Source: Prolixibacteraceae bacterium
GTDB lineage: Bacteria; Bacteroidota; Bacteroidia; Bacteroidales; Prolixibacteraceae
Length of the DNA: 64,000 nucleotides
NCBI GenBank assembly: GCA_963662895.1
Contig: OY759982.1
Coordinates: forward strand, 414,884 to 478,883
Reading direction: 5' to 3'
Positions 2,261 to 45,100 of this stretch are shown here, piece after piece. Made by a program: the position numbers and the translations under genes. The first letter of the stretch is position 1, and each line of letters opens with the position of its first letter. A model generated the notes under the pieces. That model was not told where the DNA came from. It did not search any database and saw only the letters and a program-made list of their open reading frames with translations.

Positions 2261-2290
2261 AAGGACGGTAGAGGCCGTCCTTGTTTTTTT
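2261..2290 (+). terminator. Rho-independent terminator-like hairpin (AAGGACGG-TAGAGG-CCGTCCTT followed by GTTTTTTT)
   Basis: Perfect 8-bp GC-rich stem plus a 7-U tract on the plus strand. No plus-strand gene lies upstream in the window. Confidence 0.4.
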
Positions 2291-2445
2291 AAGCACTGCC
2301 AATTTTTCTTTTCTTTTATATTCTGTTTCGGAATAAACTTCATGTATATCAGTTATTTACAGTCAAAATGTCATTGCCCGGGGTACTGGCAGAAATATTG
2401 AAAGGGACATGCATCAAGATTGTTTAATCTTAAAAATGATGAACT

Positions 2446-27687: not shown

Positions 27688-27900
27688 TTACCGGAGGTCA
27701 AGTTTCGTTTGGGGATCGGCCGGTTTTTGTTTTAGATAATCGTTAACAATCTGATCGATAGCCACCAGACATTTACCGCACGATGTTCCTGCACGGGTAA
27801 ATTCCTGAATTTTTTCTGTGGAGACACCTCCTTTTTTCAGAACGGAAATGATTTCATCTTCCGTTACAAAATTGCACATACATACCAAACGGTTTCCCAT
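27688..27900 (-). CDS. BFD-like [2Fe-2S]-binding domain protein
   Basis: C-x-C ... C-x2-C spacing (CMCNFVTEDEI...GTSCGKC) typical of the bacterioferritin-associated ferredoxin domain. The start overlaps the stop of the upstream HD gene. Confidence 0.65.
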   Translation of the reverse strand: MGNRLVCMCNFVTEDEIISVLKKGGVSTEKIQEFTRAGTSCGKCLVAIDQIVNDYLKQKPADPQTKLDLR

Positions 27901-28718
27901 TATTTCGATTTTGCAGGGGGACTGTTTTCAACAAATTTATTCTCGATATGAAGTTTGATGATACGGTAGGCGTTGATAATCCCGTCCTGTTTGGGCAGCG
28001 TGTTATATATTTTTTCGATGTACCTGTTCTGGTTCAGAATATTAAAAGAAGCCCGGTAATTCAGGTCGAAAACCCACGACATAAGCATTAACCTGAAATC
28101 GTTCATGGTTTTCAAATCCTCTTTCTTCACGAGTTTCTCCTGAAGGATTGATTTGATAACTTTGTCGGAAACCGGGTTCAGGTTGGACAGGTCGTACATT
28201 ATTGTTTTCATATCGTCGCTGCTTTTATCCCGGAACTGATTGGTAAACAAGGCCAAGACATCAAGTTTATCAGCATCGCGGATCAACTGGCAAAACATTT
28301 GTGTTTGCTCTTCTTCCTGTTTAGGGAACTGAATTTTTGAGTGGTACTGAACGGCTGTTTTTATAATATGCTGCGTTGCCTCATCAATTTCTGCAAAAAA
28401 ATCAGACTCTTCAAGTACATTTACTGATAATAAAGCATGATCTTCCGATTTTTCATCGTTAAAAGTTCCGTATTTAGTAAACTGGGGAAACCGTCCTGCA
28501 TCATGAAACAGTGCGATGATTTCAGCAATTCTTTTTTGCTCCTCATTCAGTGATAAAGCATTGGTGAGCTTATCCATGTTTTCAACTACCCGTAAAGTAT
28601 GATTCTTTTTCAGATCGATACTCCTCTGAACAATACTGTCATCCGATTTATAGTTCTGATAATACGAGTCAAAATAAAATCTTGCTATTTTCAGAATATT
28701 TTCTGTCAACATAACCAT
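27900..28718 (-). CDS. HD-domain phosphohydrolase
   Basis: His...HD metal-binding signature (LFHDAGR). Confidence 0.65.
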   Translation of the reverse strand: MVMLTENILKIARFYFDSYYQNYKSDDSIVQRSIDLKKNHTLRVVENMDKLTNALSLNEEQKRIAEIIALFHDAGRFPQFTKYGTFNDEKSEDHALLSVNVLEESDFFAEIDEATQHIIKTAVQYHSKIQFPKQEEEQTQMFCQLIRDADKLDVLALFTNQFRDKSSDDMKTIMYDLSNLNPVSDKVIKSILQEKLVKKEDLKTMNDFRLMLMSWVFDLNYRASFNILNQNRYIEKIYNTLPKQDGIINAYRIIKLHIENKFVENSPPAKSK

Positions 28719-28927: not shown

Positions 28928-29001
28928 GGTCCCATAGTTCAATGGATAGAATATCAGATTCCGGTTCTGACGATCTGGGTTCGAATCCCGGTGGGATCAC
29001 C
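28928..29001 (+). tRNA. tRNA-Arg (anticodon CCG)
   Basis: Manual fold. Acceptor GGTCCCA/TGGGATC, D-arm GTTC...GAAT, anticodon arm TCAGA-TTCCGGT-TCTGA (anticodon CCG), T-arm CTGGG-TTCGAAT-CCCGG. Discriminator A, then CC. Confidence 0.85.
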
Positions 29002-29176
29002 TTACAAAATCAAAAGCCTCGTAATTATAGGTATTACGGGGCTTTTGTGTGTTCGATATGAATGCTAAATATATTTTAGAAATAAGTAAAGTATTGTAAT
29101 ACAATTAATTAACTATTAGAGTGCCTTAAGGTTAAATAATTGTACAACAATTAAAAAACACTTTATAAAAAATAAC

Positions 29177-30757
29177 TTATAAAGACTCGATTTCAATCCT
29201 TAGAAACCTGATTGTTCCATTTTTAAACCATCCCGGAAAATTTTTAATAAGGGCTGAATTTACCATAATTGCCCCGCCTACATTTAATTGGCAATCCACT
29301 GGATTGCAATTTTCAACGATGTATGTTTTTTCTTTTTCACTATGCAGTTTTTTATGCGAGCCAGGAATAACTTGCAAAGCAAACTCTTTTGATTTTGGTT
29401 GTGAAAGCAGAACAACTAATTCAAGTTTTTTCAAATCCCCGGACTGCTTAAATTCCAGAAACTGCTCCGGTATTTTCTCGTAATAAGTAACAGTATTTAT
29501 GGAGTATTGACCTGCCAACTGTGTAAGAATTTTCTCTACTGAAGGTATCAATAAAATAGAACTTACATTTTTCTCTATCCCTAAATCGATGATTTTGGGT
29601 TTACCAGGAGTATTGTCTAATGAATTGTTTTTATATAATGCCAGACTCAATTGGTTTATACTTCGCCTGGAATAAAGTTGGTTAACCGTACAAAATCCGT
29701 TTTTAAAATATTTCTTACCTAAGGAAACAATTCCTTTCTCATTAATCGAGGTATTGTATAGTTCAAGTGCATTATTGAGTCTATCTGTAATGTTTGTACG
29801 CAAACGATCAGGTGCCAGAACAACAATACCGTCGCCCAGTCCCAGTATTTCCTTTTCCAATTCAAAATTGAGCTGCACTTCCAGTGAAATAGTAACCCCG
29901 TATTCATTTTCGTCTATTAATTTTTGCGACGAGTGGAAGGGTTTCGTTAGCACATAAGGCGCATGTTTGCGGGTAACGAACAGTACAATCTTCTCGGCCT
30001 TTGAACCATGATTTACCGTTACTCCAATCACGTTTTTGAAATACACGTCAGCGTCGAACCCCATTTCATCTGAAAAAATTCTTTCTGTGTTCTTAACTTC
30101 AATTATCCGGTCAATAGCAAGATTAAACAGTGGATGAGCATTGGTTTTTGAACCAATCAGGAACCAGCGGTTACGAAACTCTTTTAAAAGATAAGGATAA
30201 AACAAAAATGTACTTGCCTGCCTTGCCGTAAAAGACTGATAAGTGATTTCAAGAATATTCTTTCTATTGATAGCCTGATATAATTTTTCAAGAAATTCAA
30301 TTCCCTTCAAATCCTCATTTTTTTCAAAATCAATGACCGGCTTCCGGTTTACTTTCTGCGAATAGATATGGTCCTCAAGCTTTTGCACCATTGAATCCAG
30401 TTCCCTGAAATGAGAAAATCCTTTGAATTGTTTCAGAAAATCAACTGTTTCTGTTAGCTTATCCAGGTCTCCCTCAGAAAGCGGGATATTCATAATACTG
30501 TAGTCAGGATCTTCGTAGGTGTAATATTTCCGGTCTATAATTACGATTGGGGCATTGTATCCAAGCTTATCACTCCGCATTAACTGGATATCCATTTGAA
30601 CTGTTCTCCGGCTCACTCCTTTGTCAATACCCTCATATTCATACAAAGCATCGGAACAGGCATCAATTAAATCTTCCAAAGTCCATTTCCGATATCGGTT
30701 TTGTAAGCACAAATCAATGGTTTTGTAGCGAATAAGCGCATTTCGGTTGACTGGCAT
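29177..30757 (-). CDS. WYL-domain transcriptional regulator (wHTH + WYL) with a ~200-aa C-terminal extension
   Basis: N-terminal YafY-like HTH (GVSRRTVQMDIQLMRS). WYL signature region NRWFLIGSKTNAHPLFNLAIDRIIEV. The protein is unusually long (526 aa). Confidence 0.6.
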   Translation of the reverse strand: MPVNRNALIRYKTIDLCLQNRYRKWTLEDLIDACSDALYEYEGIDKGVSRRTVQMDIQLMRSDKLGYNAPIVIIDRKYYTYEDPDYSIMNIPLSEGDLDKLTETVDFLKQFKGFSHFRELDSMVQKLEDHIYSQKVNRKPVIDFEKNEDLKGIEFLEKLYQAINRKNILEITYQSFTARQASTFLFYPYLLKEFRNRWFLIGSKTNAHPLFNLAIDRIIEVKNTERIFSDEMGFDADVYFKNVIGVTVNHGSKAEKIVLFVTRKHAPYVLTKPFHSSQKLIDENEYGVTISLEVQLNFELEKEILGLGDGIVVLAPDRLRTNITDRLNNALELYNTSINEKGIVSLGKKYFKNGFCTVNQLYSRRSINQLSLALYKNNSLDNTPGKPKIIDLGIEKNVSSILLIPSVEKILTQLAGQYSINTVTYYEKIPEQFLEFKQSGDLKKLELVVLLSQPKSKEFALQVIPGSHKKLHSEKEKTYIVENCNPVDCQLNVGGAIMVNSALIKNFPGWFKNGTIRFLRIEIESL

Positions 30758-31450
30758 AAACTTTTTTCAATAAAAATATACACTTTCTTTTATCTGCGCA
30801 AAAAGATTGCGCAGTAGTAATTAACCTTTGTCCCATCAATTATGACAAAACGTTCTTTGAACCATTACAATATTGTGCAACTGGCACTAAAAATCTTCCT
30901 GAAAAAGAAGCATGGTAAAAAGCTGAAGGTATAAGCCCTGACAGGAGTTTCTGTATAGCTCCGTAGTGCGGCATTTGTTTCGAATGACCGTATGCTGCTT
31001 TGTCCAAGGTTGTTTTGCCACAACTTGTGTGTTGGGGGTTCGAATCCTCCTCCCAAATACGGGATAACTCAAAAGGTAGAGTAACAAGACCACCTCAGAA
31101 CTGCGTCTGGTAAACGCAACGGACTGTAAATCCAGCCAAAAAGAAGTCGGGCCCTTCTTTAAAAAAGCCTACCGAAAGTTGTGCCGGGAAAACCCGCCGC
31201 CCAGTTCATTTTAGATGAACAGGTGGCAGTTTTAAAGTGCCTGAGAGAAAGACAAAACCGATAACAACATTTGCTTTCCGGTTAAGCAACTTCATCAACG
31301 GACTTGGTTATAAACTCCTGATGCGGTCCCTGACCCAAAACCGAATGTTCACTTTCGAGGGATATCTTGCTTTCCGCTACGGAGAAATGGTTTTCCCCGC
31401 ACACTTTCCAAAAAGTGTAAACATTTTAACAAACATAAAAAAAACACGAC

Positions 31451-32551
31451 ATGAAAAGAATTAGAATCAACAAAGGAACAATCGGATTAGTATTCCGAAA
31501 AGGCGACTACAAACGTATCTTAACTGAAGGAATTCATTGGTTGGGAATCAATGAAAAGGTAACAGTTTATAATCTGGCTAAACCTTTCACTCCGGAAGTT
31601 GAACTGAACCTTTTGTTGGAAGATGCCGAACTGGCAAACCGTTTAAATGTAGTTGAAGTAAAAGACAATGAAATAGCCCTTCAATATATTGAAGAAAACT
31701 TCAAAAACGTACTGACACCGGGAAGATATGCCTTTTGGAAAGGAGTAACCAATTACTCATTCATAAAAGCAGACTTAAGCAAGATTGAAATTTCAGAAGA
31801 TATCCCGATGCAATTGTTACACAAACCGGAAGTGTTGCAGTATGTAAGGGTTTATGTAGTTGAATCCTATGAAAAAGGAGTTTTGATAATAAACGGAAAA
31901 ACTGATAAGGTTTTGGAAAAAGGAGTTTATTACTTCTGGAAAAATCCAATCCCAATTTCTGTAGTCAAGACCGATTTACGGCAACTGCAAATGGAAATCT
32001 CCGGTCAGGAAATCCTGACCAAAGATAAAGCTGCTTTGCGTGTGAATTTCTTTGTCCGCTACAAAACGGTTGATATCGACAAGGCTTTGTTTGAAAACAA
32101 AGAATTCGACAAGCAACTTTACGTGATGGTGCAACTGGCAATTCGCGAATTTATCGGAATGAATACCTTGGATGAATTGCTTGAACGCAAAACATCAATT
32201 TCAGAGTCGATACTTGAGACAATTGCCGCAAAAGCTGGCGAAATTGGTGTGGAAATTTTGGGTTGCGGAATTCGTGATATTATTTTACCCGGCGAGGTCA
32301 AAGATATCATGAACCAGGTACTGGTAGCAGAGAAAAAGGCTCAGGCCAACATCATTACCCGAAGGGAAGAAACAGCTTCGACCCGGAGTTTGCTGAACAC
32401 GGCCAAACTCATGGAAGAAAATACAATGCTGTTCAAACTGAAGGAAATGGAATACTTGGAAAAGATTACTGAAAAGGTAAACAACATCTCACTTTCCGGT
32501 GGTGGCCTTGTTTTAGACCAGTTGAAAGGATTGTTTGTTTCCCAAAAGTAA
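31451..32551 (+). CDS. SPFH/band-7 (stomatin/prohibitin-like) domain protein
   Basis: Band-7 core (LTKDKAALRVNFFVRYKTVD...ELLERKTSISESI...GVEILGCGIRDIILPGEV) followed by a coiled-coil tail. Confidence 0.7.
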   Translation: MKRIRINKGTIGLVFRKGDYKRILTEGIHWLGINEKVTVYNLAKPFTPEVELNLLLEDAELANRLNVVEVKDNEIALQYIEENFKNVLTPGRYAFWKGVTNYSFIKADLSKIEISEDIPMQLLHKPEVLQYVRVYVVESYEKGVLIINGKTDKVLEKGVYYFWKNPIPISVVKTDLRQLQMEISGQEILTKDKAALRVNFFVRYKTVDIDKALFENKEFDKQLYVMVQLAIREFIGMNTLDELLERKTSISESILETIAAKAGEIGVEILGCGIRDIILPGEVKDIMNQVLVAEKKAQANIITRREETASTRSLLNTAKLMEENTMLFKLKEMEYLEKITEKVNNISLSGGGLVLDQLKGLFVSQK

Positions 32552-32567
32552 AAACGTTATTTTTTAA

Positions 32568-33749
32568 TTGACAATTATGAAACAAGTAATATCAGAGGGA
32601 TGCAGAGTCCCGATAAAAATGTGGGTGAGCGATATTGAAGAGAATGCGTTGGCACAGGCCCGAAACCTGGCAAACCTTCCTTTTATTTTTAAACATGTCG
32701 CTTTAATGCCTGATTGTCATTCTGGTTACGGAATGCCTATCGGTGGGGTTATTGCCACCCAAGGTGTGATTATCCCCAACGCGGTTGGAGTTGACATTGG
32801 ATGCGGCATGTGTGCAGTTAAAACATCGCTGAATGAAATCAACACAGATGTACTGAAAACAGTCATGTCAGGAATTCGTGAATTGGTGCCATTGGGTTTT
32901 GACCATCATAAACAGGCTCAGGATGAAAGTCTGATGCCTTCAGTTGAAAATGTGCCTGAGCTAGGGATTGTTCGACGGCAATATACAGCAGCCAAAAAAC
33001 AAATTGGTACATTAGGTGGAGGTAATCACTTTATTGAAATACAGAAAGGTTCTGATGGACATATCTGGATAATGATTCATTCCGGGAGTCGGAATATAGG
33101 AATGAAAGTGGCCGAACACTATAACAAAGTGGCCATTCATCTTAACGAACGCTGGCATTCGTCTGTCGATAAAAAGCAAGACCTTGCATTCTTGCCCATA
33201 GAAACTCAGGAAGCAAAGGACTACTTTGCAGAAATGCAGTATTGTGTCGATTTTGCCTTTGCCAATCGATTGCTAATGATGGAGCGCATCAAATCGGTAT
33301 TTACATCAGTTATTGGCGAGAACTTTTCTGCCCTCGAATTTATCAACATCGCCCATAACTATGCCCGTTGGGAATCACATTTTGGCACCAATGTTATTGT
33401 ACACCGAAAAGGAGCTACCAGCGCCCGAGAGGGAGAAGTAGGTATTATTCCTGGCTCGCAGGGAACAAAAAGTTATATCGTTATGGGAAAAAGAAATACT
33501 GAAAGCTTTCAAAGTTGTTCGCACGGGGCCGGACGTACAATGGGCAGAAAACAAGCCCAACGTGAATTGGTGTTGGAGGAAGAAATTGAAAAACTCAATA
33601 ACAAAGGAATTGTCCATTCCATCCGCAATACACGCGACCTGGATGAAGCTCCCGGAGCTTACAAAAACATCGATGTTGTGATGGGAAACCAAGCTGATTT
33701 GGTCGATGTTCTGGTAGAATTAAGCCCGTTGGCAGTGATTAAGGGATAA
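32568..33749 (+). CDS. rtcB: RNA-splicing ligase RtcB
   Basis: Metal-binding and GMP-His region motifs MPDCHSGYG, GGGNHFIEIQ, HSGSRNIG, AHNYA and SCSHGAGR. Confidence 0.9.
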   Translation: MTIMKQVISEGCRVPIKMWVSDIEENALAQARNLANLPFIFKHVALMPDCHSGYGMPIGGVIATQGVIIPNAVGVDIGCGMCAVKTSLNEINTDVLKTVMSGIRELVPLGFDHHKQAQDESLMPSVENVPELGIVRRQYTAAKKQIGTLGGGNHFIEIQKGSDGHIWIMIHSGSRNIGMKVAEHYNKVAIHLNERWHSSVDKKQDLAFLPIETQEAKDYFAEMQYCVDFAFANRLLMMERIKSVFTSVIGENFSALEFINIAHNYARWESHFGTNVIVHRKGATSAREGEVGIIPGSQGTKSYIVMGKRNTESFQSCSHGAGRTMGRKQAQRELVLEEEIEKLNNKGIVHSIRNTRDLDEAPGAYKNIDVVMGNQADLVDVLVELSPLAVIKG

Positions 33750-34107
33750 TATTGTACTTTTGTTAGTTCCAGATGATTGCTATCTATCTTTGTTCATTTA
33801 GTGAGTTTGCATGTGCTTCCACCTTGGGCGGATTTAGCAGGATTGCTAGTTTCGATTAAAGACGTTATCTATAACGTGGGAATATTATTTATTAACCTTA
33901 AAAATGGACTGTGTATGAAAACAAATATAATGAAATCAATATATAAAGCTAAGCTGGTGTGGAACATGGTGGACTAAAACAGACACACTTGCAGGACAAA
34001 GAGAACCATAATAGGAGCATATGTTCCACCACCAGTTTTCATTTATAAATTAATCCGTTTCATTAAACTAAGATGTCTCCCAAAAGTTTTAACTCAGTTA
34101 TAAAATG

Positions 34108-34135
34108 GTTCGAATTTTGTCCCGGTGGGATCACT
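34108..34135 (+). repeat. attR-like direct repeat of the tRNA-Arg 3' end (T-loop + acceptor 3' strand, 5-nt insertion)
   Basis: ggttcgaat-tttgt-cccggtgggatcac versus tRNA ggttcgaat-cccggtgggatcac. Confidence 0.5.
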
Positions 34136-34177
34136 AAAAGCCTCTAATTATTTAACAATTAGAGGCTTTTGATTTTT
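34136..34177 (+). terminator. Strong hairpin terminator (14-bp stem AAAAGCCTCTAATT / AATTAGAGGCTTTT, 7-nt loop, T-tract), potentially bidirectional
   Basis: Perfect inverted repeat with A-tract upstream and TTTTGATTTTT downstream. Confidence 0.6.
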
Positions 34178-36106: not shown

Positions 36107-39100
36107 ATGAACTACAATAACAAACCTGTAGAAACTATAAAGTCCCCTTCAGAGAATCGAAGACCAGCGTTAGCTAATTTAGGGGTAGAACAAGCAGTAA
36201 CCCAAACTCCCCCCCTTAGGGGGTTAGGGGGTATTATTTTACTGTTCCTATGCAGCATTTTTACTCTGCACGCACAAACAGTCACCGCACCTTCCGGCAG
36301 CGGAACAGAAGGCGACCCCTACCAAATTGCCGCACTTGATAATTTGTACTGGTTGTCGCAGACTTCTTCTGCCTGGGGCAGCTATTTTATCCAGACAGCC
36401 GACATCAATGCCTCTGCAACAACCGGATGGAACTCCGGCAGCGGCTTTTCGCCCATTGGCAATAGTACAACAAACTTCACCGGGCATTACAACGGTGCCG
36501 GGCATACCATCACCGGGCTGTACATCAGCCGCTCTTCAACAGACTATGTCGGGCTGTTTGGAGATACCGACAATGCGAAAATCGACAGCCTCGGCGTCGT
36601 AAACTGCGACATTTCGGGAGATGATTGTGTCGGCGGTCTTGTGGGGAGACAATATAAATCTACGGTGAACAACAGCTACAGCACCGGTGGCGTTTCGGGG
36701 GATACTTCTGTTGGTGGCCTGGTGGGGAGGCATCAATACACCACGATAAACAACAGCTACAGCACGGGTAGCGTTTCGGGAGATGATTGTGTCGGCGGTC
36801 TTGTGGGGGAAAATTTCTGGGGTTGCACGGTGAGCAGCAGCTACAGTGTCGGCAGCGTATCAGGTGTTACGAATGTCGGCGGCCTGGTGGGGGAAGATAA
36901 TGGTGACTGCACGGTGAGCAATTGTTACTGGAATACCGAAACCAGCGGGCAAATTTCAAGTACCGGGGGTATCGGATTAACCACCGCCCAAATGAAACAG
37001 CAAAGCAGTTTCAGCAACTGGGATTTTGATGCTAACTGGGAAATAACCAACGGGAAAACCTTTCCCCGCTTACGCGATGTGTACGATTACCCGATGCTTT
37101 TGCCAAAGCCAACCGCAATAGCACAAAAAGGGGCCTTGTACACCGACACCCCGGCAGTACCGATGGATTATGAAATACAGCTTACCTTAAAAGATTATCC
37201 CACGGGCATGACAGTGCAAAACGGTTCCATCATCACCTGGACACCGGAAAGTGCCGGCACATATACCTTTACCGTACAAGTTGAAGACACGGAAGGGAAA
37301 ATCACAGAATGTACCTACACAATTATAGTCATTGCTTTCCCGGGTGCAGGTGCCGGAACAAAAGAAAACCCTTTTGAAATAGCCACGCTTGAAGACTTAC
37401 AATTCCTTTCGGAAAACAGCGATGGTCTCTGGAACGGTAATTTCTATTTTATCCAGACAGCCGGTATTGATGCCTCCGCAACAACCGGATGGAACGAAGG
37501 CAGCGGCTTTTCACCCATTGGCAATAGTACAACAAATTTCACCGGGCATTACAACGGTGCCGGGCATACCATCACCGGGCTGTACATCAGCCGCTCTTCA
37601 ACAGACTATGTCGGGCTGTTTGGCTATACCAACAACGCGGGAATTGACAGCCTCGGTATTATCAATTGCAATGTTACGGGAAATGCGTATGCCGGCGGCC
37701 TGGTGGGGAATTGTTATTACTCGGAAGTAAACAACTGCTACGCCACCGGTACCGTAACAGGTGCAGGCAGTGTAAGCGGGGCAGGGAGCAAGGCAGGCGG
37801 CCTGGCAGGATGCAGCTCATCCTCGGAAATAAGTAACAGTTATGCATCCGTTACCGTAACCGGTGTGGGCGATTACGTAGGCGGCCTGGTGGGGCACAAT
37901 TACGAAGCAACAGAAAGTAACTGCTATGCCACCGGCAGCGTGACAGGGGAAGGCAATTATACCGGCGGCCTGGTGGGGCGCAGTACCGATTCCGAAGTGA
38001 ACTATTGTTATTCCACCGGCCTTGTAACCGGTTCCGGCAGCTCCGTTGGCGGCCTGGTGGGCGACAATTACCCCTATCTTGGCACTTCCACTGTAAACAA
38101 TTGTTACTGGGACACCCAAACCAGCGGGCAAAGCACAGGCGACGGCGGTACCGGCCTGACCACTGCCCAAATGAAACAGCAAAACAATTTCAGCGGCTGG
38201 GATTTTGACAATACCTGGGAAATAACCAACGGGAAAACCTTTCCCCGCTTGCGCAATGTGTACGATTACCCGGTAATTCTTCCAATAGCAACAGTCGCAC
38301 AAAGAGGCACCCTGTACACCGATACCATACAGATAGTATCTATGGATTATGAAATACAGTCTGTTACGCTGGCAGATAACCCTGAAGGTATGCTATTGCA
38401 AAACGGTTCTGTCATTACCTGGACAGCGCCGGACAACATCGGTACATGTACCTTTACCGTACGGGCCGAAGACACGGAAGGGGCAACCGTGGAATACAGC
38501 TATACAATTAAAGTTATCATTAGTGGTGAGGGAACAAACGGGAACCCATATGAAATTGCCACCCTTGAAGATTTAAAATTTCTTTCGGAAAACAGCGCTT
38601 ACTGGGGCAGCTATTTTATCCAGACAGCCGATATCGATGCCTCTGCAACAACGGAATGGAACGGCGGCAGCGGCTTTTCTCCCATCGGGAATAGTACAAC
38701 AAACTTTACCGGGCATTATAACGGCGCCGGGCATATTATCAGCAATTTATACATCAACCGTCCATCCACGGATAACATCGGTTTGTTCGGTTATACCAAC
38801 GGTGCTGAAATCGACAGCCTCGGTATTGCTGATTGCAATATCACAGGGAAATCTTATACCGGAGGCTTAACAGGAAGAGATAACAATTCTGCCATTACAA
38901 ACAGTTATGTAGCGGGAACGGTGTCAGGAACAGATCAGGTTGGCGGGCTAATAGGATATACGGAAAATACAACCATTACCAACAGTTATGCAACAGGAAC
39001 GGTATCGGGTAATAATTATGTTGGCGGTTTGACCGGACAGAACAGGGTTTCTTCAACCATTACCAACTGCTATTCCGCCGCAAATGTATCGGGACATAGT

Positions 39101-42100
39101 GTGACCGGCGGCCTGGTGGGGTATAATGTTGCATCATCGGCCATCAGTAATAGTTACGCCACCGGCAGTGTTTTAGGGTCAGGTAGTAAAATAGGCGGCT
39201 TGGTGGGGCATAATAACTCCTCTACTGTCAGCAACTGCTATTATAACAGCGAAACCAGCGGGCAAAGTAATGGGATTGGCGATGACAACAACAGCCAGTT
39301 CGTAACCGGTTTGACCACGGCCCAAATGAAACAGCAAAACAGTTTTAGCGGATGGGATTTTGATAATACCTGGGAAATAACCAATGGGAAAACCTTTCCC
39401 CGCTTGCGCAATGTGTACGATTACCCGGTAATTTTGTCAAAAGCAACAATCACAATACAAAAAGGTGTCCTCTACAGTACCATACCGGCAGTACAGATGG
39501 ATTATGAAATACAGCTTACCTTAACAGACTATCCTGCGGGTATGGTAGTTCAGGACGATTCCCTTATTATCTGGACACCGGGCAACACAGGTACCTACAC
39601 CTTTACCGTACGGGTTGAAGACACCGAAGGGGCAACAACAGAATGCAGTTATACAATTAAAGTCATCTATTTCCCGACGGCAGGTGCCGGGACAAAAGAA
39701 AACCCTTTTGAAATAGCAACACTTGAAGACTTACAATTTCTTTCGGAAAACAGCGATGATTTCTGGAACGGTAATTTCTATTTTATCCAGACAGCCGGTA
39801 TTGATGCCTCCGCAACAACCGGATGGAACGGCGGCAGCGGCTTTTCTCCCATCGGGAATAGTACAACAAACTTTACCGGGCATTATAACGGCGCCGGGCA
39901 TACCATCACCGGTTTGTATATTAACAGTCCTTCAACCGATGTCGGACTGTTTGGCTATACCAACGGGGCTGTGATCGACAGCCTCGGTATTGCTAATTGC
40001 GATATTACGGGAGATTCGGGAAATAAAAATGTCGGAGGCCTGGTGGGATATACTCTCTCCTCGGAAGTGAATAACTGCTATGTAACCGGCTATGTAACCG
40101 GGGCAGGAATCAGTACCGGTGGCCTGACAGGGTGCAACAAATCCTCTGAAATGAATAACTGTTATACTGCCGTTATTGTAACCGGGGCAAATGAATACGT
40201 TGGCGGCCTGGTGGGGCACAACTCCAACGCAACGGAAAACAACTGCTATGCTACCGGCAACGTAACAGGCTCAGACGGTTATACCGGCGGTTTAGTGGGG
40301 CGCAGTACCGATTCTGAGGTAAATAACTGCTATGCTACCGGCCAGGTAACCGGTTCCGGGAGTTCCGTTGGTGGCTTGGTGGGGAATAATTATAATTTCT
40401 CAGGAGCTTCGACGATAAATAGCAGCTATTATAACAGTGAAACCAGCGGGCAAAGCAATGGGATTGGCGGGGACAACAATAGCCAGAGTGTAACCGGACT
40501 GACCACTGCCGAAATGAAGCAGCAAAACAATTTTAGCGGCTGGGATTTTGACAATACCTGGGAAATAACCAACGGGAAAACCTTTCCCCGCTTGCGCAAT
40601 GTGTACGATTACCCGATGCTTTTGCCAAAGCCAACCGCAATAGCACAAAAAGGGGCCTTGTACACCGACACCCCGGCAGTACCGATGGATTATGAAATAC
40701 AGCTTACCTTAAAAGATTATCCCACGGGCATGACAGTGCAAAACGGTTCCATCATCACCTGGACACCGGAAAGTGCCGGCACATATACCTTTACCGTACA
40801 AGTTGAAGACACGGAAGGGGCAAAAACCGCAGAATGTACCTACACAATTATAGTCATTGCTTTCCCGGGTGCAGGTGCCGGAACAAAAGAAAACCCTTTT
40901 GAAATAGCCACGCTTGAAGACTTACAATTCCTTTCGGAAAACAGCGATGGTTTCTGGAACGGTAATTTCTATTTTATCCAGACAGCCGGTATTGATGCCT
41001 CCGCAACAACCGGATGGAACGAAGGCAGCGGCTTTTCACCCATTGGCAATAGTACAACAAACTTCACCGGGCATTATAACGGCGCCGGGCATACCATTAC
41101 CGGGCTGTACATTAATCGTCCATCCACGAATAACATCGGACTGTTTGGCTATACCAACGGGGCTGTAATCGACAGCCTCGGTATTGCTAATTGCGATATT
41201 ACGGGAGATTCGGGAAATAAAAATGTCGGAGGCCTGGTGGGATATACTCTCTCCTCGGAAGTGAATAACTGCTATGTAACCGGCTATGTAACCGGGGCAG
41301 GAATCAGTACCGGTGGCCTGACAGGGTGCAACAAATCCTCTGAAATGAATAACTGTTATACTGCCGTTATTGTAACCGGGGCAAATGAATACGTTGGCGG
41401 CCTGGTGGGGCACAACTCCAACGCAACGGAAAACAACTGCTATGCTACCGGCAACGTAACAGGCTCAGACGGTTATACCGGCGGTTTAGTGGGGCGCAGT
41501 ACCGATTCTGAGGTAAATAACTGCTATGCTACCGGCCAGGTAACCGGTTCCGGGAGTTCCGTTGGTGGCTTGGTGGGGAATAATTATAATTTCTCAGGAG
41601 TTTCGACGATAAATAGCAGCTATTATAACAGTGAAACCAGCGGGCAAAGCAATGGGATTGGCGGGGACAACAATAGCCAGAGTGTAACCGGACTGACCAC
41701 TGCCGAAATGAAACAGCAAAACAGTTTCAGCAACTGGGATTTTGATAATACCTGGGAAATAACCAACGGGAAAACCTTTCCCCGTTTGCGCAATGTGTAC
41801 GATTACCCGGTGATTTTGTCAAAAGCACCGGTCACAATACAAAAAGGCGCCCTTTACACCGGTACCATACCGGCAGTACCCATGGATTATGAAATACAGC
41901 TTATCTTAACAGATTCCCCTGAGGGGATGGTAGTTCAGGACGATTCCCTTATTATCTGGACACCGGGCAATACAGGTACCTACACCTTTACCGTACGGGT
42001 TGAAGACACAGAAGGGGCAAAAACCGCAGAATGCACCTATACAATTAAAGTCATCTATTTTCCGACGGCAGGTGCCGGGACAAAAGAAAACCCTTTTGAA

Positions 42101-45100
42101 ATAGCCACGCTTGAAGACTTACAATTTCTTTCGGAAAACAGTGATATATGGGACAAATACTTTATCCAGACAGCCGACATCAATGCCTCCGCAACAACCG
42201 GATGGAACTCCGGCAGCGGCTTTTCTCCCATTGGCAATAGTACAACAAACTTCACCGGGCATTACAACGGCGCCGGGTATATCATCAGCAATTTATACAT
42301 TAACCGTCCCTCGACAAATCGTATTGGCCTGTTCGGATATACCAGCGGTGCAGTAATCGATAGCCTTGGTATTGCTAATTGTGATATCACGGGAGGTGAT
42401 TATCATGTTGGAGGCCTGGTAGGGTATAATTATTCCTCACAGGTAAATAACTGCTACGTTACTGGTAGCATATCCGGCTCAGGCTATTACGTTGGTGGCC
42501 TGCTGGGAACCAATACAGCTTCCTCTGCAGTGGGCTACTGTTATTCCACAGGCAGTGTAAGAGTGTCGCATAGGTATGTAGGTGGCCTGATAGGGTACAA
42601 TAATTTCTCAACAGTAAACTACTGTTATAGCGCGGGCAGTATAACAGGTGCAAGTGCCGGTGGCCTGCTGGGCTACAATTCCGGCACTGTAATCAATTGT
42701 TATTATAACAGCGAAACCAGCGGGCAAAGTAATGGGATTGGCGATGACAACAACAGCCAGTTTGTAACCGGTTTGACCATTGCCCAAATGAAACAGCAAA
42801 GCAGTTTTAGCGGATGGGATTTTACAACCACTTGGGCTATACGGAAAGATAGTACCTATGCTGCTCTGCAGGGGATCAACAATGCCCCTTTTGCTTTTTC
42901 TGACATTGTAGAAGTATCCGTTGGAGATGTGCTGCTCCTTGACACAGTATTGCTAGCCAACGACTGCGATTACGAAACCGGGCAAGCTGCACTTATATAT
43001 AAAATAATAAGCGCAACCTCTGATAACTGTACTATAAACGGCAATATCTATACGTTTAACAATGAAGCAGCAATTGGTTCTTCTGAAACAATAATGTACC
43101 ATGCCGGTGAATTACTGGCTCCGGGTGATACGCTGTGGGGCAATGTCGCCCGGGCAGTACTAAATATCACTACGCCTTCCGGCAACGGGACAGAAAATGA
43201 TCCCTACCAAATTGCCACGCTTAACCATCTTGGCTGGCTCTCTCAGACAAACAGCGCCTGGAACAAATATTTCATCCAAACAGCCGATATTGATGCCTCG
43301 GAAACAACGGAATGGGACACAGGCAGCGGTTTTTCGCCCATCGGCAACCAGACAACGAACTTCACCGGGCAGTATAACGGCAAAGGGCATACCATCACAG
43401 GGCTGTACATCAACCGTCCGTCAACCGATTATACCGGGCTGTTCGGACACACCTCCAATGGCACAGTAATCGACAGCCTTGGAATTGCGAATTGCGATAT
43501 TACGGGAAATTCCCGTGTTGGCGGCCTGGTAGGGCTCAGTTATACCTCCTGTACAATAAGCAACTGCTATGTCACCGGTAGCGTAACAGGCTCAGTCAAT
43601 TACGTTGGCGGCCTGGCAGGGTACAATTACGAAGCAACGGTAAGCAACAGCCATGCCATATGCAGTGTAACGGGCAGTTCTTATGTCGGTGGCCTGGTGG
43701 GGCACAATTACCCCTCTTCGACAATAAGCTATAGCTATGCCACCGGCAGTGTAACCGGCTCGGGCGAAAAAACCGGCGGCCTGGCGGGGTGCAATAAATC
43801 CTCGGAGATAAATAACTGCTACGCCACAGGCAGTGTAGCAGGAGCACACGATTATGTTGGGGGACTGGTGGGGCACAATTACGAAGCAACAGAAAGCAAC
43901 TGCTATGCCACCGGCAGCGTGACAGGGGAAGGCAGTTATACCGGCGGCCTGGTGGGGCGCAGTACCGATTCCCGGGTAAACTATTGTTATTCCACCGGCC
44001 TTGTAACCGGTTCCGGCAGCTCCGTTGGCGGCCTGGTGGGCGACAATTACCCTTATCTTGGCACCTCCACGGTAAGCAGTTGTTACTGGGATACCCAAAC
44101 CAGCGGGCAAAGTTCAAGCGATGGCGGTACTGGTTTAACCACCGCCCAAATGAAACAACAGGCACAACTGGTTGGGTTCGATTTTACAACCACCTGGGCA
44201 ATACGCGAAGACAATACCTATGCCGCCATGCAGGGGCTTAACAACGCACCCATTGCCTTTGCCGACAGCATAGTAGTATATGGCGGCGTTTTACAACTCG
44301 ACACAATGTTAACCAACGATTATGATTATGAAACCGGGCAAAGCTCACTTGTATATCAAATAATAAGCGCTGCCTCGAACAATGGCAGCATAAACGGAAA
44401 TGTCTTCATATTTAGTAGTAGTGCACTTATTGGTTCAACCGATACAATCGTGTACCGTGCAGGTGAAATCCTGGCCCCGGGCGATACCCTGTGGGGCAAC
44501 ACGGCACAGGCTGTGTTATATTACAGACCTTATGAAATAACCACGCTTGAAGATTTAAAACTTCTTTCAGAAAACAGCGTTTACTGGGATAAGTGTTTTA
44601 TCCAGACCACCGATATCGATGCCTCCGCAACAACCGGATGGAACTCCGGCAGCGGCTTTTCTCCCATCGGGAATAGTACAACAAACTTTACCGGGCATTA
44701 TAACGGCGCCGGGCATACCATCACCGGTTTGTATATTAACAGTCCTTCAACCGATGTCGGACTGTTTGGCTATACCAACGGGGCTGTGATCGACAGCCTC
44801 GGTATTGCTAATTGCGATATTACGGGAGATTCGGGAAATAAAAATGTCGGAGGCCTGGTGGGATATACTCTCTCCTCGGAAGTGAATAACTGCTATGTAA
44901 CCGGCTATGTAACCGGGGCAGGAATCAGTACCGGTGGCCTGACAGGGTGCAACAAATCCTCTGAAATGAATAACTGTTATACTGCCGTTATTGTAACCGG
45001 GGCAAATGAATACGTTGGCGGCCTGGTGGGGCACAACTCCAACGCAACGGAAAACAACTGCTATGCTACCGGCAACGTAACAGGCTCAGACGGTTATACC

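What the first reader, a model, noticed from the sequence alone, without database searches (positions are those of the whole stretch)
29177..33749. WYL regulator - SPFH - RtcB RNA-repair module as island cargo
RtcB RNA ligase reseals RNAs cut by stress- or toxin-associated ribonucleases, and is normally regulated by RtcR (CARF + sigma54). Here it is preceded by a band-7/SPFH membrane-scaffold protein, and a divergently oriented, unusually long (526 aa) WYL-domain regulator sits upstream. WYL domains are ligand-sensing regulators often wired to defence or damage-response systems. The arrangement suggests a WYL-controlled RNA-repair or stress module carried on a mobile islet. The WYL protein's ~200-aa C-terminal extension (containing VIPGSHKK) is unassigned.
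Basis: partly seen in the sequence, partly recalled or inferred. Interest (0 to 1): 0.55.

Follow-up and report, generated by a model that had tools for sequence, protein, structure and literature searches.

The report
WYL-controlled tRNA-mimic, SPFH, RtcB RNA-repair cassette
The three genes are real and form a widespread Bacteroidota RNA-repair cassette already predicted in 2016, whose unnoticed fourth part is a conserved tRNA-like RNA in the 693-bp gap, all sitting here on a 5-kb islet inserted at a tRNA-Arg gene.

Summary
A 526-aa HTH-WYL-WCX protein lies divergent from an SPFH gene followed by RtcB, and all three pass Pfam cut-offs.

It holds a perfect 8-5-8 palindrome placed 36 nt from the WYL start codon and conserved across the family. 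After it comes a structured non-coding RNA: a ~110-nt domain, a YrlA-type tRNA mimic with a loop-capped acceptor stem, and an anticodon-like hairpin (CUGUAAA). The tRNA mimic shows strong covariation. It lies upstream of this SPFH family in 74 of 80 species loci.

The "unassigned" C-terminus is a PhyH-type Fe/2OG-dioxygenase fold that has lost its HxD...H metal triad. Most relatives keep the triad.

The SPFH protein has no predicted membrane helix.

Orthologues of the WYL protein flank RtcB, SPFH or both in 35 of 43 informative loci.

The islet claim holds. The last 15 nt of tRNA-Arg recur 5.1 kb downstream, and four ~92%-identical cassette copies have unrelated flanks. No integrase gene is present.

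This is the Band-7/RtcB/tRNA-like system of Burroughs and Aravind (2016). WYL control of RNA repair is also already predicted in print. It is a new member of a known but experimentally untested kind.

The parts
28928..29001 (+). Resident tRNA-Arg(CCG). Its last 15 nt (28986-29000, TCCCGGTGGGATCAC) form the left att-like repeat of the islet.
   Evidence: ARAGORN; Rfam tRNA 62.2 bits; repeat D11; alignment A5.
29177..30757 (-). Regulator gene, 526 aa. It has a DriD/PafBC-like HTH-WYL-WCX part (res 1-~335) and a PhyH-like double-stranded beta-helix domain (res ~336-526). That domain lacks the HxD...H iron triad and the 2OG-binding Arg.
   Evidence: Pfam WYL and WCX. Homologues carry PF05721 PhyH. 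Alignment A3 shows a ~45-aa deletion that removes WHQD. The AF2 model has pLDDT 85-92 over the C-terminal domain. Foldseek hits: DriD 8tpk E 1e-12, PafBC 9fnd, and Fe/2OG oxygenases FtmOx1/AndA/SnoN/KanJ at E ~1e-8 to 1e-7. A profile search hits EctD 3emr.
30794..30814 (.). Candidate operator. It is a perfect inverted repeat, CTGCGCAA-N5-TTGCGCAG, 36 nt from the WYL ATG.
   Evidence: Unique in the 64-kb window, with 0 expected. Invariant in alignment A2. Found by strict pattern in 57 of 117 WYL loci, 43 of them at 36-39 nt from the ATG, with near variants in most of the rest. Within 2.5 kb upstream of SPFH it occurs in 30 of 32 WYL+ loci and 11 of 38 WYL- loci. Background is 14 matches in 638 kb. 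Protein binding is inferred, not shown.
30822..30830 (+). TAACCTTTG, a Bacteroidetes -7-box-like element (TAnnTTTG type) 12 nt after the palindrome. It points towards the ncRNA and SPFH. This is the inferred promoter.
   Evidence: TTTG is conserved at this spacing in A2 and in most upstream sequences listed. The promoter consensus is from my own knowledge (Bayley et al. 2000). No transcript data exist.
30892..31005 (+). Conserved structured RNA domain 'M1' (~110 nt, three hairpins). It has no Rfam family.
   Evidence: An nhmmer profile hits 91 related loci, always immediately 5' of the tRNA mimic. RNAalifold on 37 sequences finds 18 pairs, 13 with compensatory changes. Rfam E-value scan finds nothing here.
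31021..31091 (+). tRNA-mimic unit 1 (YrlA-type). In order: anticodon-stem 3' strand (31024-31028), 5-nt variable region, T arm (31034-31050), loop-capped acceptor hairpin (31051-31064), UA, D arm (31067-31082), then anticodon-stem 5' strand (31084-31088).
   Evidence: Rfam YrlA RF02553 scores 29.3 bits, E 0.003, below the gathering score of 69. On 36 sequences, 94% of cells pair versus 42-48% in slid controls. There are 184 double-change cells versus 22-46, and 0 of 500 shuffles reach this. Model R1 scores 73.5 bits in the window. R1 hits 74 of 80 SPFH-seeded loci. It hits 23 of 23 SPFH+ loci and 2 of 20 SPFH- loci in the independent WYL-seeded set.
31103..31133 (+). Remnant of tRNA-mimic unit 2. 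It comprises a D-arm-like hairpin (GCGU-CUGGUAA-ACGC, 31103-31117) and an anticodon-like hairpin (GGA-CUGUAAA-UCC, 31121-31133; GUA = Tyr-like at 31126-31128).
   Evidence: In A2 it aligns with the complete second units of other loci. Thirty other loci have full second units ending in 5-bp/7-nt anticodon hairpins, with UUU x10, CAU x6 and GUU x4 among others. The stem is only 3-4 bp in the window.
31141..31157 (+). Hairpin AGAAG-ucgggcc-CUUCU followed by UU. It may be the 3' end of the ncRNA or a processing site. This is uncertain.
   Evidence: Read directly from the sequence. The GAAG...CTTCT block is conserved in A2. The terminator scan did not call it on the + strand.
31158..31450 (+). A 290-nt leader before SPFH. 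It has conserved sequence islands and a 15-nt long-range complement (31180-31194 / 31389-31403). Its role is unresolved.
   Evidence: Inverted repeat I13. Alignment of 16 loci gave no consensus structure.
31451..32551 (+). SPFH/Band-7 ('slipin family') protein, 366 aa, with no predicted TM helix. It has three N-terminal beta-meander repeats, an SPFH core and long helices.
   Evidence: Pfam Band_7 E 1.5e-33. Family members are a very uniform 366 aa at 66-98% identity. Kyte-Doolittle 19-residue maximum is 1.2. Stomatin 9wmj E 2.6e-17 over res 133-360. AF2 model pLDDT 73. Foldseek matches stomatin/HflK over ~230-250 columns and major vault protein 9z4w/7pkz over 403-414 columns.
32568..33749 (+). 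RtcB 3'-phosphate/5'-OH RNA ligase with catalytic motifs intact. The likely true start is ATG 32577.
   Evidence: Pfam RtcB E 2.5e-114. P. horikoshii RtcB 1uc2 E 7.6e-49. The alignment keeps CHSGYG, GGGNHF, HSGSR, AHN and SCSHGAGR.
34107..34134 (+). Right att-like repeat: GGTTCGAAT + 4 nt + TCCCGGTGGGATCAC. It is a partial copy of the tRNA-Arg T-loop and 3' end. A terminator-like hairpin (34135-34171) follows, resembling the one after the tRNA.
   Evidence: Repeat D11 is exact over 15 nt. Alignment A5. Terminator scan.

Best explanation
Window 29001-34134 is a small horizontally acquired islet inserted at the 3' end of tRNA-Arg(CCG). It carries one complete four-part cassette.

(1) A DriD/PafBC-type HTH-WYL-WCX transcription factor. 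Its dimer is inferred to bind the 21-bp palindrome at 30794-30814, which overlaps the -33 region of the rightward promoter.
(2) A ~250-300-nt structured RNA made from that promoter. It comprises the M1 domain, a YrlA-type tRNA mimic with a capped acceptor stem, and an anticodon-like hairpin.
(3) A soluble, probably ring- or cage-forming SPFH protein.
(4) The RtcB ligase, which joins 3'-phosphate or 2',3'-cyclic-phosphate ends to 5'-OH ends.

The proposed working model follows the Salmonella rsr-yrlBA-rtcBA operon. There, Ro60 and a tRNA-like Y RNA accompany RtcB, and the CARF regulator RtcR is switched on by tRNA halves with cyclic-phosphate ends. In the cassette here, the SPFH protein takes the place of Ro60 as the protein partner of the tRNA-like RNA. 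The WYL domain takes the place of CARF as the sensor of broken nucleic acid. On tRNA or rRNA cleavage by ribotoxins, anticodon nucleases or translation stress, the regulator would switch the promoter on. The RNA-SPFH particle would then help RtcB find or hold substrates for resealing.

Shown: gene content and intact RtcB motifs; conserved synteny; a conserved operator at a fixed position; RNA structure supported by covariation; tight SPFH-RNA co-occurrence; att-like repeats.

Inferred: DNA binding by the regulator; the identity of the WYL ligand; activation versus repression; SPFH-RNA binding; RtcB substrates; co-transcription of the RNA with SPFH-rtcB.

The C-terminal PhyH-like domain is catalytically dead in this clade. 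It most likely serves as a structural or ligand-binding module.
For: - Domains and motifs.
- Synteny, WYL-seeded loci with at least 3 kb upstream: 23 have SPFH (20 of them also RtcB), 12 have RtcB alone and 8 have neither.
- Synteny, SPFH-seeded loci: WYL lies upstream in 32 of 70 and RtcB downstream in 51 of 80. This is a lower bound, because tRNA arrays push neighbours out of the 4.5-kb flank, e.g. in L060.
- Operator.
- Regulator fold closest to DriD and PafBC, which are WYL activators that bind single-stranded DNA and contact RNA polymerase.
- tRNA mimic. The capped acceptor stem pairs 6.18 of 7 positions with 61 distinct strands, versus 3.57 when partners are shuffled.
- M1 domain.
- The RNA travels with SPFH, not with RtcB or WYL alone: 23 of 23 versus 2 of 20 loci.
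- Literature: tRNA halves with cyclic phosphate activate RtcR (PMC7790460). The YrlA tRNA-like domain has the same arm order (PMC4201824, 10.1101/312249). Band-7 + RtcB + b7a-tRNA has been predicted (10.1101/312249, citing Burroughs & Aravind 2016). WYL and CARF transcription factors are proposed to sense cyclic-phosphate RNA and regulate RNA repair (PMC9503650).
- Experimental analogue: in Anabaena one repressor co-controls a tRNA array, rtcB and a slipin gene, all induced by translation inhibitors (PMC10272220).
- Islet.
Against: - There are no expression, binding or ligation data for any member of this system.
- The single-sequence fold of the RNA region is not exceptional (z = -1.48). Support comes only from comparison across loci.
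- In the window the mimic is eroded. The acceptor cap has 4 bp rather than 7, unit 2 lacks its T arm and acceptor, and the anticodon-like stem has 3-4 bp.
- About half of the SPFH loci show no WYL gene within 4.5 kb, and 29 of 80 show no RtcB within 4.5 kb. The parts can therefore be separated.
- Known ligands of solved WYL regulators (DriD, PafBC) are single-stranded DNA, not RNA.
- The islet has no integrase, so its mobility is historical or depends on functions supplied in trans.
- The helix-1 covariation set was pre-filtered for at least 4 of 5 pairs, although 40 of 41 candidates passed.
Confidence: 0.6

Rival explanations
1. Decoy or sensor for anticodon nucleases. The tRNA mimic cannot be aminoacylated, because its acceptor end is capped, yet it displays a canonical anticodon loop. 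Invading tRNases of the colicin E5/D, PrrC or RloC type, or toxins from toxin-antitoxin (TA) modules, would cut it first. The cut RNA, carrying a 2',3'-cyclic phosphate, would be the ligand for the WYL domain and would induce the operon. RtcB would then reseal both the decoy and the real tRNAs.
For: Thirty second units end in 5-bp/7-nt hairpins with U33 and purine 37. Their anticodons are typical of known nuclease targets: UUU Lys x10, GUU Asn x4, plus GUA Tyr, ACG Arg and GUG His. The window carries CUGUAAA, the tRNA-Tyr loop. The anticodon hairpin is the 3'-most element, so a cut would release a defined fragment. RtcR is activated by exactly such fragments (PMC7790460). Ordinary tRNA genes for Tyr, Asp, Asn, His, Lys, Gln, Glu and Arg sit in the same transcription units elsewhere.
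Against: Forty of 71 units have no anticodon loop at all. CAU, found six times, is not a classic nuclease target. The window's anticodon-like stem is weak. No nuclease or toxin gene is linked to the cassette. Nuclease recognition usually needs base modifications and full tRNA context. Nothing here has been tested.
Confidence: 0.15
2. Permuted tRNA precursor. The units would be circularly permuted tRNA genes. RtcB would join the transcript ends, and RNase P plus 3' processing would open the capped acceptor. The result would be spare functional tRNAs made only when RtcB is active.
For: Most loci have 7-bp acceptor stems. In Flavobacteriaceae the cap loops often begin with ACCA or ACC directly after the 3' acceptor strand (table). 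M. smegmatis YrlA, which has a 7-bp stem, is cut by RNase P and receives CCA in vivo (PMC4201824). The units lie next to true tRNA arrays.
Against: Unit 1 has no anticodon loop, so it could never decode. In the window the acceptor cap is 4 bp with no CCA. No endonuclease that would generate ligatable ends is linked. Permuted tRNA maturation is known only in a few algae and archaea (own knowledge).
Confidence: 0.05
3. Loose neighbourhood. The WYL protein only autoregulates or controls something else. SPFH would be an ordinary membrane-microdomain protein and RtcB a stand-alone ligase. The tRNA-like sequences would be decaying tRNA genes left by integration events.
For: No WYL gene is seen within the flank in 38 of 70 SPFH loci, and RtcB is missing in 29 of 80. 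tRNA genes and islands commonly co-locate. The window's unit 2 is degenerate.
Against: The operator sits at a fixed distance and is present even in 11 of 38 loci with no adjacent WYL gene, versus about 1 expected. Compensatory changes maintain four helices, with 0 of 500 shuffles matching. The RNA accompanies SPFH in 74 of 77 loci that have upstream sequence. The same 4.6-kb block moves as a unit between unrelated contexts. SPFH has no TM helix.
Confidence: 0.1
4. Anti-phage defence or abortive-infection module under a WYL repressor, as with BrxR or CapW. RtcB and SPFH would act as effectors or immunity factors.
For: WYL regulators often control defence islands (PMC4012209, PMC9503650). PADLOC WYL models match at E 3e-24. 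One copy sits beside a NACHT protein and mobilisation genes. The cassette lies on an islet.
Against: PADLOC gives no system-specific hit for SPFH (weak PDC-S64, E 0.0011) and none for RtcB. No nuclease or other toxic effector is present. RtcB chemistry is reparative. No relatives occur in 2.9 million viral contigs, which neither supports nor excludes defence.
Confidence: 0.07

Closest known systems
[quoted passage not shown] I know it only through 10.1101/312249 and PMC9503650; the paper itself was not held in the library.
   Same: RtcB lies next to a Band-7 protein and a tRNA-like non-coding RNA. A YrlA-like RNA is said to occur occasionally next to Band-7. WYL transcription factors are cited as sensors for RNA-repair pathways. 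The system spreads by lateral transfer.
   Different: I could not check whether the 2016 description covers several features found here: the HTH-WYL-WCX-PhyH fusion, the palindromic operator, the M1 domain, the two-unit capped tRNA-mimic architecture, and the linked tRNA arrays. The window's copy has a dead PhyH domain and a reduced second unit.
Salmonella rsr-yrlBA-rtcBA operon (Ro60 + YrlA Y RNA + RtcB/RtcA, regulated by RtcR)
   Same: An RtcB operon that includes a tRNA-mimic RNA with the same arm order: stem, T arm, capped acceptor, D arm, stem. A dedicated nucleic-acid-sensing regulator is encoded alongside.
   Different: There is no Ro60/TROVE protein, no RtcA, and no sigma-54/CARF regulator. 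The RNA fails the Rfam YrlA gathering score (29.3 versus 69 bits) and lacks a recognisable Ro-binding helix. It carries the M1 domain and, in many loci, a second unit with a real anticodon loop.
WYL-domain activators DriD (Caulobacter) and PafBC (Actinobacteria)
   Same: The HTH-WYL-WCX fold matches (Foldseek E 1e-12 to 1e-10). A palindromic site directly abuts or overlaps the upstream promoter element. These regulators control damage-response genes.
   Different: This protein has an extra C-terminal PhyH-like domain. Its target is an RNA-repair operon. Its ligand is unknown, whereas the known ligands are single-stranded DNA. Bacteroidetes promoters are of a different type.
Anabaena TrcR regulon (PMC10272220)
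   Same: One transcription factor co-controls tRNA genes, rtcB and a slipin-family gene. The regulon is induced by translation stress.
   Different: The regulator is a ribbon-helix-helix (RHH) protein, not a WYL protein. The genes are dispersed rather than in one cassette. No tRNA mimic has been described.
PhyH-family Fe(II)/2-oxoglutarate dioxygenases (e.g. EctD, FtmOx1, KanJ)
   Same: The C-terminal domain has the double-stranded beta-helix fold. Relatives pass Pfam PhyH and keep HxD...H and the Arg.
   Different: In the window protein the HxD segment is deleted and both the distal His and the Arg are replaced. It is not expected to bind iron or 2OG.
Eukaryotic vault particle (major vault protein + TROVE protein TEP1 + vault RNA)
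   Same: The predicted SPFH protein has N-terminal beta repeats, an SPFH 'shoulder' and a long helix. It aligns to MVP over its whole length (403-414 columns, E 4.5e-7). It is genetically tied to a small structured RNA.
   Different: The model is only of medium confidence (pLDDT 73). There are three short repeats rather than nine domains. No assembly data exist. The resemblance may simply reflect the shared SPFH fold.

Membership tests
Band-7/SPFH-RtcB-tRNA-like RNA repair system (Burroughs & Aravind 2016) | RtcB ligase with intact catalytic motifs | tested here: met
   Pfam E 2.5e-114. Metal-binding and His-GMP motifs are conserved against P. horikoshii RtcB.
Band-7/SPFH-RtcB-tRNA-like RNA repair system (Burroughs & Aravind 2016) | Band-7/SPFH gene adjacent to RtcB and co-oriented with it | tested here: met
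   SPFH stops at 32551 and RtcB starts at 32568/32577. The same pairing occurs in 51 of 80 species loci.
Band-7/SPFH-RtcB-tRNA-like RNA repair system (Burroughs & Aravind 2016) | Associated tRNA-like non-coding RNA | tested here: met
   tRNA mimic at 31021-31091. Present in 74 of 80 SPFH loci. I could not check whether it is identical to the published 'b7a-tRNA'.
Band-7/SPFH-RtcB-tRNA-like RNA repair system (Burroughs & Aravind 2016) | RNA repair activity in vivo | not testable with these tools
   According to 10.1101/312249, the RNA has never been validated experimentally.
WYL-domain transcription factors (DriD/PafBC/BrxR type) | WYL and WCX domains above curated cut-offs | tested here: met
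   WYL 40.6 bits versus 21.8; WCX 35.7 bits versus 23.9.
WYL-domain transcription factors (DriD/PafBC/BrxR type) | N-terminal DNA-binding HTH | tested here: inconclusive
   No Pfam HTH hit. The AF2 N-terminus is helical but has low confidence, pLDDT 45-75. The full-length Foldseek alignment to DriD includes it. Residues 1-130 are the most conserved part of the family.
WYL-domain transcription factors (DriD/PafBC/BrxR type) | Palindromic operator in the regulated or own promoter | tested here: met
   The 8-5-8 palindrome is conserved at a fixed position. Binding itself was not tested.
WYL-domain transcription factors (DriD/PafBC/BrxR type) | Nucleic-acid or nucleotide ligand bound by the WYL domain | not testable with these tools
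   Inference from DriD/PafBC (single-stranded DNA) and from the predictions in PMC9503650.
PhyH Fe(II)/2OG dioxygenases | Double-stranded beta-helix fold | tested here: met
   Foldseek to FtmOx1, AndA, SnoN/K, KanJ and AsqJ at E ~1e-8 to 1e-7, probability 1.0.
PhyH Fe(II)/2OG dioxygenases | HxD...H iron triad and 2OG-binding Arg; Pfam PF05721 above cut-off | tested here: not met
   No PhyH hit even at E 0.1. WHQD is deleted, LLHAS is replaced by NSALIKNF, and RRV by TIR. Relatives such as P0118 do meet this feature (E 8.8e-12).
YrlA (Rfam RF02553) Y RNA-like | tRNA-like domain with order stem / T arm / capped acceptor / D arm / stem | tested here: met
YrlA (Rfam RF02553) Y RNA-like | Rfam gathering score | tested here: not met
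   29.3 bits versus 69. No YrlA hit at gathering threshold in 14 related loci.
YrlA (Rfam RF02553) Y RNA-like | Adjacent Ro60/Rsr (TROVE) gene and Ro-binding helix | tested here: not met
   The cassette has only three protein genes. ORFs within about 5 kb are HD, BFD, NDK, DHH, NUDIX, DEAD and a LuxR-like protein.
RtcR-regulated rtcBA operon | RtcR (CARF-AAA+-HTH) regulator and RtcA cyclase next to RtcB | tested here: not met
   Neither is among the neighbouring ORFs.
tRNA-targeted genomic island | Direct repeat of the tRNA 3' end bounding the insert | tested here: met
   A 15-nt exact repeat at 28986-29000 and 34120-34134, plus GGTTCGAAT. About 0.02 such repeats are expected by chance in 6.1 kb (own estimate).
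tRNA-targeted genomic island | Integrase or other mobility gene inside the insert | tested here: not met
   Only the three cassette genes lie between the repeats. A near-identical copy elsewhere lies beside HTH_17, MobC and relaxase genes.
tRNA-targeted genomic island | Different flanks in close relatives | tested here: met
   The window, L001-3, L008 and L088 share only 29165/29202 to 33750-34034 at ~92% identity.

The most novel reading that the evidence does not exclude
The SPFH protein is a soluble, vault-like cage. It has beta repeats, an SPFH shoulder and a cap helix, with no membrane anchor. It packages a chimeric RNA made of the M1 domain and one or two capped tRNA mimics, one of which displays a genuine anticodon loop.

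This particle would act as a bait and sensor for anticodon nucleases, and as a docking platform that hands broken tRNAs to RtcB. The WYL regulator would read the resulting cyclic-phosphate RNA ends. In most lineages that regulator carries an apparently active Fe/2OG dioxygenase. In many Bacteroidota the same promoter would also drive spare tRNA genes.

That would make this a bacterial counterpart of Ro/Y-RNA and vault RNPs, and the first WYL regulator with an RNA ligand and an enzymatic sensor domain.
Probability: 0.12. Interest if true: 0.85.

Novelty: new member of a known kind. Interest (0 to 1): 0.5.

Why it matters
What bacterial RtcB repairs, and what SPFH proteins and tRNA-like RNAs contribute to that repair, are open questions. 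The Band-7/RtcB/tRNA-like system has been only a computational prediction since 2016.

This analysis makes the system directly testable. It supplies a compact 4.6-kb transferable cassette. It gives exact coordinates for a candidate operator, a promoter and an RNA with a covariation-supported structure. It identifies a regulator homologous to structurally solved activators. It also makes a clear prediction: the RNA accompanies the SPFH protein, not the ligase.

The cassette occurs in at least 537 species genomes. Any function found would therefore apply broadly across Bacteroidota, including gut and marine groups. It may also bear on tolerance to ribotoxins and to translation-targeting antibiotics.

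Tried and rejected
- Rfam at gathering threshold found only the resident tRNA-Arg in the window. It found no YrlA in 14 related loci. The YrlA hit is sub-threshold, so I describe the RNA as YrlA-like in architecture, not as a member.
- ARAGORN finds no tRNA in the gap. I had read 30905-30997 by eye as a degenerate tRNA-Tyr. I dropped that once the alignment showed a three-hairpin domain (M1) without a T arm.
- The conserved CUGAUGAG in M1 suggested a hammerhead core. I rejected this: there is no GAAA/stem III partner, and the segment pairs within a hairpin.
- I tested an alternative parse of tandem units as normal-order tRNAs lacking anticodon arms. The acceptor strands of neighbouring units are generally not complementary (e.g. 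L009). Only L087 and L027 allow it.
- The single-sequence MFE of the RNA region is not significant (z = -1.48).
- The sigma-70 promoter scan is uninformative for Bacteroidetes, with 19 found versus 15.8 expected.
- Aligning the 290-nt leader from 16 loci gave no consensus structure. The long-range complement at 31180-31194/31389-31403 remains unexplained.
- PADLOC returned only generic WYL models, so no defence-system membership is supported.
- NCBIfam gave no equivalog for any of the three proteins. The PrfH-associated RtcB type is below its cut-off.
- The IMG/VR viral scan with the SPFH profile found no relatives.
- The Burroughs & Aravind 2016 paper could not be read. Claims about it rest on two citing papers.

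Full report
**1. Observation**

Pfam supports every call above curated cut-offs:
- WYL: E 2.6e-10.
- WCX: E 1.1e-8.
- Band_7: E 1.5e-33.
- RtcB: E 2.5e-114.

RtcB keeps the metal-binding and His-GMP motifs when aligned to P. horikoshii RtcB. Its real start is probably ATG 32577, which gives 390 aa as in homologues. A tRNA-Arg(CCG) gene lies at 28928-29001, just beyond the 3' end of the WYL gene. An SPFH orthologue at 98% identity comes from an uncultured Draconibacterium genome. The window is therefore from Draconibacterium or a close relative.

**2. The regulator**

A search with the 526-aa protein finds thousands of relatives. Full-length ones are 520-590 aa, so the length is normal for this subfamily.

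Many relatives carry Pfam PhyH at the C-terminus. P0118 from Flexithrix dorotheae scores E 8.8e-12. A 35-sequence alignment shows that the longer proteins keep WHQD (the HxD motif), a distal His in LLHAS, and RRVIHLEF. The window protein and its 520-530-aa clade differ in three ways:
- A ~45-aa deletion removes the HxD motif.
- The distal His is absent.
- The Arg is absent.

An AlphaFold model built from that alignment is confident over residues 330-526, with pLDDT 85-92. Foldseek gives two sets of matches:
- Residues 1-340 match DriD (E 1e-12) and PafBC.
- The C-terminal domain matches Fe/2OG oxygenases such as FtmOx1, AndA, SnoN/K, KanJ and AsqJ (E ~1e-8 to 1e-7).

A profile search of PDB sequences agrees, hitting WYL proteins and EctD. 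The "unassigned" extension is therefore a PhyH-type fold without its catalytic triad.

**3. Conserved neighbourhood**

Three diverged WYL homologues (93%, 64% and 52% identity) all show the same layout: WYL, a 690-980-bp gap, Band_7, then RtcB. Their other neighbours are unrelated.

A profile scan of one genome per species found at least 537 genomes with this SPFH family, and 80 loci were fetched. Within those loci:
- A WYL orthologue (48-95% identity over residues 1-334) lies divergently upstream in 32 of 70 loci with more than 3 kb of upstream sequence.
- RtcB lies downstream in 51 of 80.

These are lower bounds. Intervening tRNA arrays can push the WYL gene about 4 kb away, as in L060.

The reverse scan of metagenomes with the WYL profile gave 43 loci with at least 3 kb upstream:
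- 23 have SPFH, and 20 of those also have RtcB.
- 12 have RtcB directly, without SPFH.
- 8 have neither.

That condition is not met.

**4. The operator**

Alignment of nine intergenic regions shows an invariant palindrome. In the window it is CTGCGCAA-N5-TTGCGCAG at 30794-30814.
- It is unique in the 64-kb window, with none expected by chance.
- A strict pattern finds it in 57 of 117 WYL loci. In 43 of these it lies 36-39 nt from the ATG. Most of the rest carry near variants.
- Twelve nucleotides downstream lies TAACCTTTG. This resembles the Bacteroidetes -7 box (my own knowledge) and points towards SPFH.
- An operator-like site occurs within 2.5 kb upstream of SPFH in 30 of 32 WYL+ loci and 11 of 38 WYL- loci. 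The background rate is 14 matches in 638 kb.

A site overlapping the upstream promoter element is how DriD and PafBC act. Entries 9pfq and 9fnd among the Foldseek hits are RNA-polymerase complexes of these activators. Binding and its sign are inferred here, not shown.

**5. The missing component: a tRNA-like RNA**

The antisense translation of the gap contains 'GGFEPPT', a typical T-arm signature. A permissive Rfam scan gave a sub-threshold YrlA match at 31026-31087, at 29.3 bits and E 0.003 against a gathering score of 69.

A pattern for T arm, hairpin and D arm found 71 non-identical instances 300-670 nt upstream of SPFH:
- The hairpin between the T and D arms pairs 6.18 of 7 positions on average, with 61 different strands. 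Shuffled partners give 3.57.
- The T stem pairs 5 of 5 in every instance.

Forty instances are closed by a 5-bp stem formed from sequence 5' of the T arm and 3' of the D arm. That stem has 23 distinct versions. This is the YrlA arm order described in PMC4201824 and 10.1101/312249.

On 36 aligned units:
- 94% of cells pair, versus 42-48% when partners are slid.
- There are 184 double-change cells, versus 22-46 in controls.
- None of 500 shuffles reaches this.

One caveat applies. The D stem was constrained by the search pattern, and helix 1 was filtered at 4 or more of 5 pairs. Forty of 41 candidates passed that filter.

The covariance model R1 gives these results:
- It hits the window at 31021-31091.
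- It hits 74 of 80 SPFH-seeded loci. Three of the six misses have no upstream sequence.
- In the independent WYL-seeded set it hits 23 of 23 SPFH+ loci but only 2 of 20 SPFH- loci.

The RNA therefore travels with the SPFH gene, not with RtcB or WYL.

**6. Further RNA parts**

Thirty loci carry a second unit: T arm, capped acceptor, D arm, then a complete 5-bp/7-nt anticodon hairpin. The anticodons are UUU x10, CAU x6, GUU x4, and others. In Flavobacteriaceae the cap loops often begin with ACCA.

The window keeps only a D-arm-like hairpin (31103-31117) and GGA-CUGUAAA-UCC (31121-31133) from this second unit.

Upstream of unit 1 lies a ~110-nt domain, M1, at 30892-31005. A profile detects it in 91 loci, always just 5' of unit 1. 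It has three hairpins, and 13 of 18 pairs show compensatory changes. It matches no Rfam family.

In many genomes ordinary tRNA genes sit on the same strand between the operator and these elements. Some loci have a single tRNA-Tyr. Others have arrays of up to 16 tRNAs.

**7. The SPFH protein**
- It has no hydrophobic segment; the KD19 maximum is 1.2.
- Residues 133-360 align to stomatin.
- The AF2 model, pLDDT 73, shows three short beta-meander repeats, an SPFH core and long helices.
- Foldseek matches stomatin, HflK and prohibitin cages over 230-250 columns. It matches major vault protein over 403-414 columns at E 4.5e-7.

'Membrane scaffold' is therefore unsupported. A soluble oligomeric scaffold is plausible but untested. 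No relatives occur in IMG/VR.

**8. The islet**
- The last 15 nt of tRNA-Arg recur exactly at 34120-34134.
- That copy is preceded by GGTTCGAAT and followed by a terminator-like hairpin similar to the one after the tRNA.
- Four copies of the cassette at ~92% identity (the window, L001-3, L008 and L088) share only 29165/29202 to 33750-34034. All their flanks differ.
- One of those copies lies beside HTH_17, MobC and relaxase genes.
- The left flank in the window is housekeeping: a DEAD helicase, NDK and a DHH protein.
- No integrase lies inside the 5.1 kb.

**9. Comparison with the literature**
- Wang et al. (10.1101/312249) report that Burroughs & Aravind 2016 predicted RtcB next to a Band-7 protein and a 'b7a-tRNA', with YrlA occasionally next to Band-7. 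They state that none of this has been validated experimentally.
- Iyer et al. 2022 cite the same paper for WYL transcription factors. They state that CARF and WYL factors may sense cyclic-phosphate RNAs and regulate RNA repair.
- Hughes et al. [quoted passage not shown]
- In Anabaena, one repressor co-controls a tRNA array, rtcB and a slipin gene under translation stress.
- Searches for WYL together with PhyH returned nothing.

The 2016 paper itself could not be read.

**10. Verdict**

This is a real, complete and mobile copy of a known but experimentally untouched RNA-repair system. It missed the RNA, mislabelled SPFH as a membrane protein, and left an assignable domain unassigned.

The mechanism I favour has the WYL protein as the sensor, the tRNA-mimic RNA with SPFH as cofactor, and RtcB as the ligase. 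It rests on comparative evidence and analogy; no step after gene content has been shown.

Noticed in passing
L043, L045, L051, L053, L059, L062, L071, L075, L080, L083, L085, L086 (roughly 200-3700 in locus coordinates); single tRNA-Tyr in L010, L016, L017, L030 and others: Arrays of 10-16 ordinary tRNA genes, or a single tRNA-Tyr(GUA), lie on the same strand directly upstream of the tRNA mimic and SPFH gene in many Bacteroidota. In L010, L017 and L030 the tRNA-Tyr sits immediately behind the WYL operator and promoter. This recalls the stress-induced tRNA array co-regulated with rtcB and a slipin gene in Anabaena (PMC10272220).
   Followed up: partly
window 31451-32551 (SPFH protein): The predicted structure has three tandem ~45-aa beta-meander repeats before the SPFH core. 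It aligns over its full length to major vault protein (9z4w, 7pkz). It has no membrane helix.
   Followed up: partly
L092, L093, L100, L109, L127, L153-L155, L159, L162, L164, L166: In these loci, orthologues of the WYL regulator sit next to RtcB with no SPFH gene and no tRNA mimic. The regulator-ligase link therefore exists independently of the SPFH-RNA pair.
   Followed up: partly
L018, L021, L023 (operator ~167-170 nt upstream of SPFH): These SPFH loci have no WYL gene, no RtcB and no tRNA mimic. They still carry the operator palindrome close to the SPFH start, and two of them (L021, L023) carry a tRNA-Tyr there as well.
   Followed up: no
L004/L005 5556-6180: RtcB is split into two short ORFs in a Prolixibacteraceae MAG copy of the cassette. 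This may be a pseudogene or an assembly error.
   Followed up: no
L001 1-4468 and 9985-16740: A near-identical cassette copy is flanked on one side by a 2169-aa NACHT-domain protein. On the other side lie HTH_26, HTH_17, MobC and relaxase genes, suggesting a mobilisable element.
   Followed up: no
window 31180-31194 and 31389-31403: A 15-nt long-range complement, together with conserved islands (TTCCGn...GATG), lies in the 290-nt leader before SPFH. By eye, other loci seem to keep the complementarity with different sequence. Automatic alignment gave no consensus.
   Followed up: partly
window 36107-52639: A giant 5510-aa ORF with highly repetitive GLUG-motif and He_PIG Ig-like units. GC content is ~0.48, against ~0.36 in its surroundings.
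   Followed up: no
window 27688-28718: An HD-domain protein (weak Cas3'' HD similarity, below cut-off) is followed, with adjoining or overlapping stop and start codons, by a 70-aa BFD-like [2Fe-2S] protein. The pair lies just left of tRNA-Arg.
   Followed up: no
window 54182-57518: A fusion of an S24-peptidase-like N-terminus with an ABC/AAA_21 ATPase (730 aa) lies next to an NTP_transf_5 nucleotidyltransferase. This may be a defence- or toxin-related pair.
   Followed up: no
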